Sequence record: BH153092.1
Origin: a phage
DNA length: 354 nucleotides
Reading direction: 5' to 3' (one strand)
The translations under genes were made by a program, and so were the position numbers. The notes under the pieces are model-generated. The model saw nothing but the letters and a program-made list of their open reading frames with translations. It was not told the origin of the DNA and did not search any database. This document shows positions 1-354 of this stretch, in pieces (the first letter of the stretch is position 1; each line of letters opens with the position of its first letter).

Positions 1-80
1 GGCCACTATGATGCCAATAAGAAGCGTCTCTATATTAGTCCCATTTCTGCGAATGATCTTGTAAGGTTACGTTCAACGAA

Positions 81-308
81 TTACAGCATCAAGCCTAGAG
101 TATAAGGTTGCGGACTATAGGCAGATTGCAAAGAAAAAGACAGAAGAGAACACGTATCTCTCATAGTCGAAACTAAGGCATCCAAAGCCGTAGTCGTTCC
201 ACAAATACTATACAAAAGAATTGTATGCCACGATTGTGGACTAGCTACAAACGTTAACACCAGGGCGGTATAACTACTGAACGGTGGACACGCTATTAAA
301 CTCGCCAA
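81..308 (-). CDS. 75-aa ORF from the six-frame track, hypothetical protein if real; judged most likely a spurious antisense ORF
   Basis: ORF is real as an open frame (TTG start at 306-308, TAA stop at 81-83; the stop-to-stop frame extends to 329). Against it being a gene: non-ATG start; no purine-rich Shine-Dalgarno-like motif in the 17 nt upstream (minus-strand sequence ccacaacgtacacgaca); peptide is about 60% S+L+T+A+P with only 3 charged residues in 75 (D2, R1, no E or K); its codon positions carry T-rich position 1 and C/T-rich position 2, the mirror image of the sense-like pattern on the + strand. Confidence 0.1.
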   Translation of the reverse strand: MASLIACPPFSSYTALVLTFVASPQSWHTILLYSICGTTTALDALVSTMRDTCSLLSFSLQSAYSPQPYTLGLML

Positions 309-354
309 TGTCGTGTACGTTGTGGTCAGCTAAATCCTGAAAGTCAAACACGCG
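121..354 (+). pseudogene. Coding-like region in + frame 1 (codon position 1 at coordinates = 1 mod 3), interrupted by in-frame TAA at 271-273 and 331-333 and lacking any ATG/GTG/TTG in its 50-codon open stretch 121-270; disrupted gene remnant or non-standard-code CDS fragment, product unknown
   Basis: Hand-counted position-specific composition for 121..354 (78 codons): position 1 G 31, A 25, C 13, T 9; G by codon position 31/11/8; T by codon position 9/26/14. Purine-rich position 1 and T-rich position 2 are the standard sense-strand pattern, and the phase is the same in every 60-nt block across both TAA codons, so no frameshift. Conceptual translation of 121-270: ADCKEKDRREHVSLIVETKASKAVVVPQILYKRIVCHDCGLATNVNTRAV, then stop. 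No homology search was possible and I do not recognise the protein. Confidence 0.3.
130..150 (+). repeat. Low-complexity polypurine tract (20 of 21 bases A/G; single C at 141)
   Basis: Directly visible: aaagaaaaagacagaagagaa. In + frame 1 it reads K-E-K-D-R-R-E; on the minus strand it is a polypyrimidine run that produces the LLSFSL segment of the track ORF. Confidence 0.5.

What the first reader, a model, noticed from the sequence alone, without database searches (positions are those of the whole stretch)
121..354. Sense-strand-like triplet periodicity on the + strand, opposite to the only called ORF
Over the whole window, G falls 40/21/15 and T 18/35/30 at coordinates = 1/2/0 mod 3 (A 39/41/39, C 21/21/34). 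A 4x3 chi-square by hand gives about 23 on 6 df, roughly p = 0.001. G-rich, T-poor first positions and A/T-rich second positions are the standard signature of a sense coding strand, and the signal is concentrated in 121..354 (G 31/11/8). This argues that the window derives from protein-coding sequence read left to right in frame 1, and that the minus-strand ORF in the track is its antisense shadow.
Basis: partly seen in the sequence, partly recalled or inferred. Interest (0 to 1): 0.45.

Follow-up and report, generated by a model that had tools for sequence, protein, structure and literature searches.

The report
Mirror-image copy of phage nrdD gene
The three-base rhythm is real, but it exists because the window is a known phage gene (RB49 nrdD, anaerobic ribonucleotide reductase) written backwards without complementing, so neither strand of the window encodes anything and the finding is a data artefact or control.

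Summary

The window as given, on either strand, matches nothing. There was no DNA match in phages, plasmids, E. coli genomes, or viral, genome and metagenome contigs. There was no protein match for + frame 1 or for the minus 75-aa ORF.

Read from base 354 to base 1 without complementing, one frame is open over all 117 codons and encodes NrdD (Pfam PF13597, E=9.5e-16; T4 NrdD structure 1H78, E=7e-31). The reversed DNA is 98.9% identical over 100% of its length to Escherichia phage RB49 nrdD (E=6e-125).

The window equals the base-by-base complement, not reversed, of AY343333.1 top strand 35546-35639 plus 35839-36098. It differs only by a 199-nt gap and two adjacent-base swaps.

The G-rich column is the gene's true first codon position. 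The signal fades below about position 100 because the 199-nt gap shifts the phase.

No + strand gene exists, and the minus ORF is spurious. Low interest: a mirrored sequence, either a decoy or a strand-handling error.

The parts
95..354 (.). Mirror image (plain reversal, no complement) of Escherichia phage RB49 nrdD from the 2nd base of codon 97 to codon 183. This equals the complement without reversal of AY343333.1 top strand 35839-36098. True codon position 1 falls at coordinate = 1 mod 3, position 2 at 0 mod 3 and position 3 at 2 mod 3.
   Evidence: reversed bases 1-260 match L003 1501-1760 at 256 of 260 positions; the translation matches Pfam NRDD and T4 NrdD (1h78) residues 97-189. In one search, the composition by true codon position (G 40% at position 1) resembles that of the whole RB49 gene (G 34.5% at position 1).
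1..99 (.). Mirror image of RB49 nrdD around codons 248-281 (DPNYDIKQLALECSSKRLYPDYISAKNNRSIT). This equals the complement without reversal of AY343333.1 top strand 35546-35644. Here true codon position 1 falls at coordinate = 2 mod 3, one base out of phase with the rest of the window.
   Evidence: reversed bases 256-354 match L003 1955-2053 at 99 of 99 positions, and the reversed frame-2 translation is identical to RB49 NrdD. In one search, re-phased composition for 1-94 gives chi-square 11.0 (p=0.09), with T 45% and A 10% at position 3.
95..99 (.). Junction of the two pieces. The 5-base CTAGA (AGATC in gene orientation) is present at both edges of a 199-nt stretch of RB49 nrdD that is missing from the window. 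Because 199 = 3x66+1, the gap shifts the frame.
   Evidence: No public viral or metagenome contig carries this junction.
344..345 (.). Adjacent-base swap relative to RB49. In gene orientation TC becomes CT, changing codon 100 from ATC (Ile) to ACT (Thr).
   Evidence: RB49 and two IMG/VR relatives all have ATC here. No viral contig has the swapped version.
326..327 (.). Second identical adjacent-base swap. In gene orientation TC becomes CT, changing codon 106 from ATC (Ile) to ACT (Thr).
81..308 (-). The 75-aa ORF called in the track, starting at TTG. It is a spurious open frame in the complement of the mirrored gene, and it is rich in Ser/Thr/Ala/Pro because its second codon position is the complement of the G-rich column.
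   Evidence: the ORF; no Pfam hit; product not on record; no tblastn hit in phages.
1..354 (+). It is interrupted by stops at 103 (TAA), 118 (TAG), 271 (TAA) and 331 (TAA) and is not a gene.
   Evidence: stops. (no homologue anywhere).

Best explanation
The window is not a natural 5'->3' sequence. It is a fragment of the nrdD gene of Escherichia phage RB49 (Krischvirus RB49), which encodes the large subunit of the class III anaerobic ribonucleoside-triphosphate reductase. The fragment is written in mirror image, reversed but not complemented. Equivalently, it is the GenBank top strand complemented but not reversed. This operation keeps base composition and three-base periodicity, and it keeps codon position 1 in a fixed phase. 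That is why the + strand shows a 'sense-like' pattern of G-rich first position and A/T-rich next position. The operation destroys all coding meaning and all detectable similarity on both real strands. The signal weakens below about position 100 because the window joins two pieces of the gene across a 199-nt gap, which moves the codon phase by one base. What is shown: the identity with mirrored RB49 nrdD, the codon-phase mapping, and the absence of any gene on either strand. What is inferred: the mirroring happened in silico, either as a deliberate reversed-sequence control or as a complement-without-reverse bug, because no known replication or recombination process produces a non-complemented reversal.
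For:: the plain reversal has a frame open over all 117 codons, whereas the six ordinary frames have 4-11 stops each; that translation hits Pfam PF13597 NRDD at E=9.5e-16 (58 bits against a cutoff of 26.2); it hits the phage T4 NrdD structure 1h78 at E=7.3e-31, residues 97-189, and 9d3x at E=2.6e-19; the reversed DNA matches 834 phage records; the best is RB49 nrdD at 98.9% identity and 100% coverage (E=6e-125); reverse(window) = RB49 L003 1501-1760 + 1960-2053 with only 4 differing bases; the window as given has no match in phages, plasmids, E. coli genomes, or viral, genome or metagenome contigs; the forward window against the RB49 locus gives only 11-14 nt chance matches; composition by true codon position in 100-354 (G 40/11/16%, T 14/18/33%) follows that of the whole RB49 nrdD gene (G 34/17/19%, T 17/28/38%).
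Against: The window is not a perfect mirror of the deposited RB49 sequence. It lacks 199 nt and carries two TC->CT swaps that are absent from RB49, from two IMG/VR relatives and from all scanned contigs. The exact source and processing history therefore remain unknown. The 5-nt microhomology at the gap looks like a biological or PCR/assembly deletion rather than a random cut, so part of the history may be real biology that happened before the mirroring.
Confidence: 0.97

Rival explanations
1. A real gene on the + strand in frame 1, either decayed into a pseudogene or read with a code in which TAA/TAG are sense codons. All four in-frame stops are TAA/TAG and none is TGA.
For: G-rich first and A/T-rich second positions in that frame. 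The four stops are TAA, TAG, TAA and TAA.
Against: The frame-1 translation has no homologue in Pfam, PDB, 5.8 billion protein clusters or phage tblastn. The window DNA matches nothing in any collection. The mirrored reading explains the same periodicity and gives a 99% identical known gene.
Confidence: 0.01
2. The minus-strand 75-aa ORF (81..308) is the real gene and the + strand periodicity is its antisense reflection.
For: It is the longest ordinary ORF in the window.
Against: It starts at TTG and has a low-complexity Ser/Thr/Ala/Pro/Leu composition. It has no Pfam hit, its product is not on record and it has no tblastn hit in phages. It spans the junction of the two mirrored nrdD pieces at 95-99.
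Confidence: 0.005
3. Chance or repeat-driven periodicity in non-coding DNA, for example from the GTN runs at 190-199 and 310-327.
For: The window is short, and the sub-window was chosen after looking at the data.
Against: The whole-window shuffle p is about 0.001. There are no tandem repeats and only two short chance direct repeats. The GTN runs are mirrored real codons of nrdD.
Confidence: 0.005
4. The source is a genuine RB49-like phage variant whose nrdD carries a 199-nt microhomology-mediated frameshifting deletion and two Ile->Thr changes. Only the mirroring is artificial.
For: A 5-nt AGATC repeat lies at both edges of the gap; by my own rough calculation the chance of 5 or more shared bases at a random cut is about 0.6%. 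From general knowledge, T4 nrdD is dispensable in aerobic culture, so a broken nrdD could persist.
Against: No scanned contig or phage record has the junction or the swaps. Two identical adjacent-base transpositions (ATC->ACT) in an otherwise 100% identical 354 nt are not a typical mutation pattern. This statement refines the best explanation and does not compete with it.
Confidence: 0.3

Closest known systems
Escherichia phage RB49 (Krischvirus RB49, Straboviridae) nrdD, anaerobic NTP reductase large subunit, AY343333.1 34525-36387 complement (protein AAL15144.2)
   Same: After plain reversal, 350 of 354 bases are identical to two segments of this gene (codons 97-183 and 248-281), and the translation is identical except Ile100Thr and Ile106Thr.
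   Different: The window is written 3'->5' and so is not the gene on either strand. A 199-nt stretch between the segments is missing, which shifts the frame. There are two TC->CT swaps.
Bacteriophage T4 NrdD (class III ribonucleotide reductase; PDB 1H78/1H79/1H7A/1H7B/1HK8; Pfam PF13597 NRDD)
   Same: The mirrored translation aligns to T4 NrdD residues 97-189 at E=7.3e-31 and to Pfam NRDD profile positions 78-150 at E=9.5e-16.
   Different: Only a fragment of about 90 residues of a protein of about 600 residues is covered. It is a homologue, not the same gene, and it is visible only in the mirrored reading.
Reversed-sequence negative controls (decoys) and complement-without-reverse strand-handling errors (named from general knowledge of bioinformatics practice, not tested here)
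   Same: The window keeps its composition, length and codon periodicity but loses all homology and reading frames on both real strands, which is what such a control or error produces.
   Different: A simple reversal of the deposited RB49 record would not also carry a 199-nt gap and two base swaps. Provenance could not be checked with these tools.

Membership tests
   There are four in-frame stops, at 103, 118, 271 and 331.
   No hit in Pfam, PDB, 5.8 billion protein clusters or phage tblastn, even at E<=10.
NrdD (class III anaerobic ribonucleotide reductase, Pfam PF13597) gene present in the window | NrdD-like translation from one of the six biological reading frames | tested here: not met
   Of the six ordinary frames, + frames 1 and 2, - frame 1 and the 75-aa ORF that fills most of - frame 2 were scanned against Pfam and gave no hit; + frame 3 and - frame 3 (8 and 11 stops) were not scanned. 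The NRDD hit appears only for the non-complemented reversal.
Mirror image (reversed, non-complemented copy) of a natural sequence | The reversed string is near-identical to a natural sequence over its full length | tested here: met
   98.9% identity and 100% coverage to RB49 nrdD, E=6e-125. 350 of 354 bases are identical after allowing for one gap.
Mirror image (reversed, non-complemented copy) of a natural sequence | The string as given, and its reverse complement, match nothing | tested here: met
   No blastn match in phages, plasmids or E. coli genomes. No exact 23-mer match in viral, genome or metagenome contigs. Only 11-14 nt chance matches to the RB49 locus itself.
Mirror image (reversed, non-complemented copy) of a natural sequence | Documented reversal or complement step in the data's provenance | not testable with these tools
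   The origin of the window is not disclosed.
Structured non-coding RNA (viroid-like, snoRNA and similar) | Rfam family match or unusually stable fold | tested here: not met
   The only hit is Afu_304 at 12.4 bits against a gathering score of 35, E=8.6. Fold z-scores are -0.49 and +0.51. No tRNA or tmRNA was found.

The most novel reading that the evidence does not exclude
Before it was mirrored, the sequence came from a real RB49-like phage whose nrdD is inactivated by a 199-nt deletion between two AGATC repeats and carries two tandem TC->CT substitutions. That would be a naturally or laboratory-decayed anaerobic ribonucleotide reductase gene in a Krischvirus.
Probability: 0.3. Interest if true: 0.08.

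Novelty: not a real feature. Interest (0 to 1): 0.04.

Why it matters
It has no biological importance. Its value is as quality control. The case shows that codon-position composition and period-3 tests survive plain reversal of a sequence and can point confidently to a 'sense strand' that does not exist. Any periodicity-based coding call should be backed by an open frame or by homology. A window with strong periodicity, no open frame and no match anywhere should be tested in mirror image. If the mirroring was not deliberate, the pipeline has a complement-without-reverse bug that may affect other windows taken from minus-strand features.

Tried and rejected
- **Non-coding RNA or viroid-like element.** A 354-nt record raised this possibility. 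Rfam gave only a chance snoRNA hit, ARAGORN found nothing, and folding on both strands was no better than shuffles. Rejected.
- **Frame 1 with TAA/TAG reassigned.** All four in-frame stops are TAA/TAG. With stops masked as X, the translation had no hit in Pfam, PDB, the large protein collection or phage tblastn. Rejected.
- **Recovering the source contig.** I tried the exact 75-aa product and a forward 23-mer in three contig collections. Nothing was found.
- **Tandem or dispersed repeats as the source of periodicity.** None of significance were found.
- **Natural carriers of the 199-nt gap or the two swaps.** I searched in true gene orientation. There were none in viral or metagenome contigs, and none among the listed phage records, which all span 551-553 nt.
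- **Searches not run.** The two remaining large protein searches were not spent on the minus ORF, because Pfam, the exact look-up and phage tblastn were already negative and the mirrored origin accounts for the ORF.

Full report
**Observation**

At coordinates = 1/2/0 mod 3, G is 40/21/15, T 18/35/30, A 39/41/39 and C 21/21/34. The chi-square is 23.48 on 6 df (p=6.5e-4), and the mononucleotide-shuffle p is 0.001. In 121-354, G is 31/11/8 and the chi-square is 33.9 (p=7e-6). In 1-120 there is no signal (chi-square 5.7, p=0.46). Period-3 Fourier power is 2.58 against a shuffle mean of 0.74 and sd of 0.42 (p=0.0014). The called minus-strand ORF (81..308, 75 aa, TTG start) is there.

+ frame 1 carries four stops: TAA 103, TAG 118, TAA 271 and TAA 331. 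With the stops masked, its translation has no hit at E<=10 in Pfam or in PDB sequences. It also has no hit in the 5.8-billion-cluster protein collection or by tblastn in 50,697 phage records.

The minus ORF has no Pfam hit, is not on record as a called product and has no phage tblastn hit.

The window DNA has no blastn match, even in the sensitive 'distant' mode at E<=1, in phages, plasmids or E. coli genomes. A 23-mer from it is absent from the viral, genome and metagenome contig collections.

It is not a structured RNA. The only Rfam hit is a chance one (Afu_304, 12.4 bits against a gathering score of 35, E=8.6). No tRNA or tmRNA was found. Fold z-scores are -0.49 and +0.51. It has no tandem repeats.

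A sequence with a clear coding-type rhythm, no open frame and no relative anywhere is odd. This prompted a test of non-biological readings.

**The decisive result**

I translated the plain reversal of the window (base 354 to base 1, not complemented). One frame has no stop in 117 codons, whereas the six ordinary frames have 4-11 stops each. The translation is AQTESPKSTGVACAVTAQIIAQVASHQYGGTTIANIDQVLAPYVKKTYHKHLADAETYGIKADTLYAQEKTEKETLDGYQALEYEI... It hits Pfam PF13597 (NRDD, anaerobic ribonucleoside-triphosphate reductase) at E=9.5e-16, 58 bits against a cutoff of 26.2. It also hits the crystal-structure sequence of phage T4 NrdD (1h78) at E=7.3e-31 over residues 97-189.

The reversed DNA matches 834 phage records. 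The best is Escherichia phage RB49 nrdD at 98.9% identity and 100% coverage, E=6e-125. The forward window found none of these. Against the RB49 locus itself, the forward window gives only 11-14 nt chance matches.

**Exact anatomy**

L003 is the RB49 locus in coding orientation, with the nrdD CDS at 1212-3074.

- reverse(window) = L003 1501-1760 followed by L003 1960-2053, with 350 of 354 bases identical.
- In GenBank coordinates, the window runs in the same direction as the top strand of AY343333.1. It is that strand's base-by-base complement over 35546-35639 (window 1-94) and 35839-36098 (window 95-354).
- It can therefore be described either as 'reversed but not complemented' relative to the gene, or as 'complemented but not reversed' relative to the record.
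- Five bases at the junction (window 95-99, AGATC in gene orientation) occur at both edges of the missing 199 nt.
- The four differing bases are two identical adjacent-base swaps. In gene orientation TC becomes CT at window 344-345 and 326-327, turning ATC (Ile) into ACT (Thr) at NrdD residues 100 and 106.
- RB49 and two IMG/VR relatives have ATC at both sites.
- Neither the junction nor the swapped stretch occurs in the viral contigs, and the junction does not occur in the metagenome contigs.

In window 100-354, coordinate = 1 mod 3 is the gene's true codon position 1, 0 mod 3 is position 2, and 2 mod 3 is position 3. By true position, G is 40/11/16% and T 14/18/33%. This resembles the whole RB49 nrdD gene, where G is 34/17/19% and T 17/28/38%.

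Reading the mirrored text left to right from a position-1 base gives triplets made of position 1 of one codon, then positions 3 and 2 of the codon that precedes it in the gene. The G-rich first position is preserved. The A/T-rich wobble base lands in the apparent second position. Together these imitate the classical signature.

The signal fades on the left because 199 is 3x66+1. In window 1-94, true position 1 sits at coordinate = 2 mod 3, so pooled counts by a single phase blur the signal. Re-phased, that piece shows T 45% and A 10% at position 3 (chi-square 11.0, p=0.09 on only 94 bases). The re-phased sum of the two pieces (window 1-94 plus 100-354, 349 bases) gives chi-square 33.2 (p=9e-6).

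The mirrored frame stays open across the junction only by chance. The last 24 residues of that translation are out of frame. The correct continuation, DPNYDIKQLALECSSKRLYPDYISAKNNRSIT, appears in the neighbouring mirrored frame and is identical to RB49 NrdD.

**Mechanism and rivals**

No replication, repair, recombination or reverse-transcription process writes a strand in the same chemical polarity with reversed base order. This is established knowledge, not something tested here. A 99% identical mirror image over 354 nt cannot be convergence either. The best explanation (confidence about 0.97) is therefore an in-silico mirroring, either a deliberate reversed-sequence control or a complement-without-reverse bug applied to a minus-strand feature.

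The rivals are each at or below 1%. They are a + strand gene (with or without TAA/TAG reassignment), a real minus-strand ORF, and chance periodicity.

One question stays open. The 199-nt gap and the two swaps may belong to a real RB49-like variant: the 5-nt microhomology favours a biological or PCR/assembly event, with a rough chance of 0.6% for a random cut by my own estimate. Alternatively they were added in silico: two identical adjacent-base transpositions in otherwise identical sequence are an unusual mutation pattern. I put about 0.3 on the former. It does not change the verdict.

**Comparison with what is known, and novelty**

The underlying sequence is the already known nrdD of phage RB49, a T4-like Krischvirus, homologous to the structurally characterised T4 NrdD. 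The window as given does not qualify as an NrdD gene, because no biological reading frame encodes NrdD. It meets the two sequence-level criteria for a mirrored copy that could be tested here; whether a reversal or complement step is documented in the data's provenance could not be checked with these tools. Interest is very low, except as a caution that period-3 and codon-position statistics are blind to sequence reversal and as a possible flag for a strand-handling bug.

Noticed in passing
window 95-99 (junction); missing stretch = AY343333.1 35640-35838: Relative to RB49 nrdD, the mirrored sequence lacks 199 nt (codons ~184-249, the conserved NTLFSTNGQTPFVTLTFG... core). The gap is flanked on both sides by the same 5 bases, AGATC. 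Because 199 is not a multiple of 3, the gene would be frameshifted. All listed phage relatives have the full stretch.
   Followed up: partly
window 344-345 and 326-327: Two identical adjacent-base transpositions relative to RB49. In gene orientation ATCG becomes ACTG, giving Ile100Thr and Ile106Thr. They are the only base differences in 354 nt. They are absent from RB49, from two IMG/VR relatives and from the viral contig collection. The pattern is odd for natural mutation.
   Followed up: partly
window 4-102, + strand: A weak Rfam hit to the fungal C/D-box snoRNA Afu_304 (12.4 bits against a gathering score of 35, E=8.6), driven by a UAUGAUG box-C-like motif at 7-13. It is a chance match inside mirrored coding sequence.
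   Followed up: yes
window 1-354, + frame 1: All four in-frame stops are TAA/TAG and none is TGA, which briefly suggested a reassigned-stop genetic code. The mirrored origin explains the frame without any recoding.
   Followed up: yes
window 1-73 (mirrored reading, last 24 codons): The mirrored NrdD frame stays open for 24 more codons after the frameshifting junction (LHWNVLVSVFTLIISLRRITVVSP). This gives a misleading 117-codon uninterrupted frame. The true continuation lies in the neighbouring mirrored frame.
   Followed up: yes
L001 (IMGVR_UViG_2974573495_000001) 3287-3839 and L002 (IMGVR_UViG_3300045988_033703) 1327-1877: Two IMG/VR contigs of 150-165 kb carry RB49-like nrdD at 95-96% identity in piece 1 and 99% in piece 2 to the mirrored window, with the 199 nt present. 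They are ordinary Krischvirus-like relatives.
   Followed up: partly
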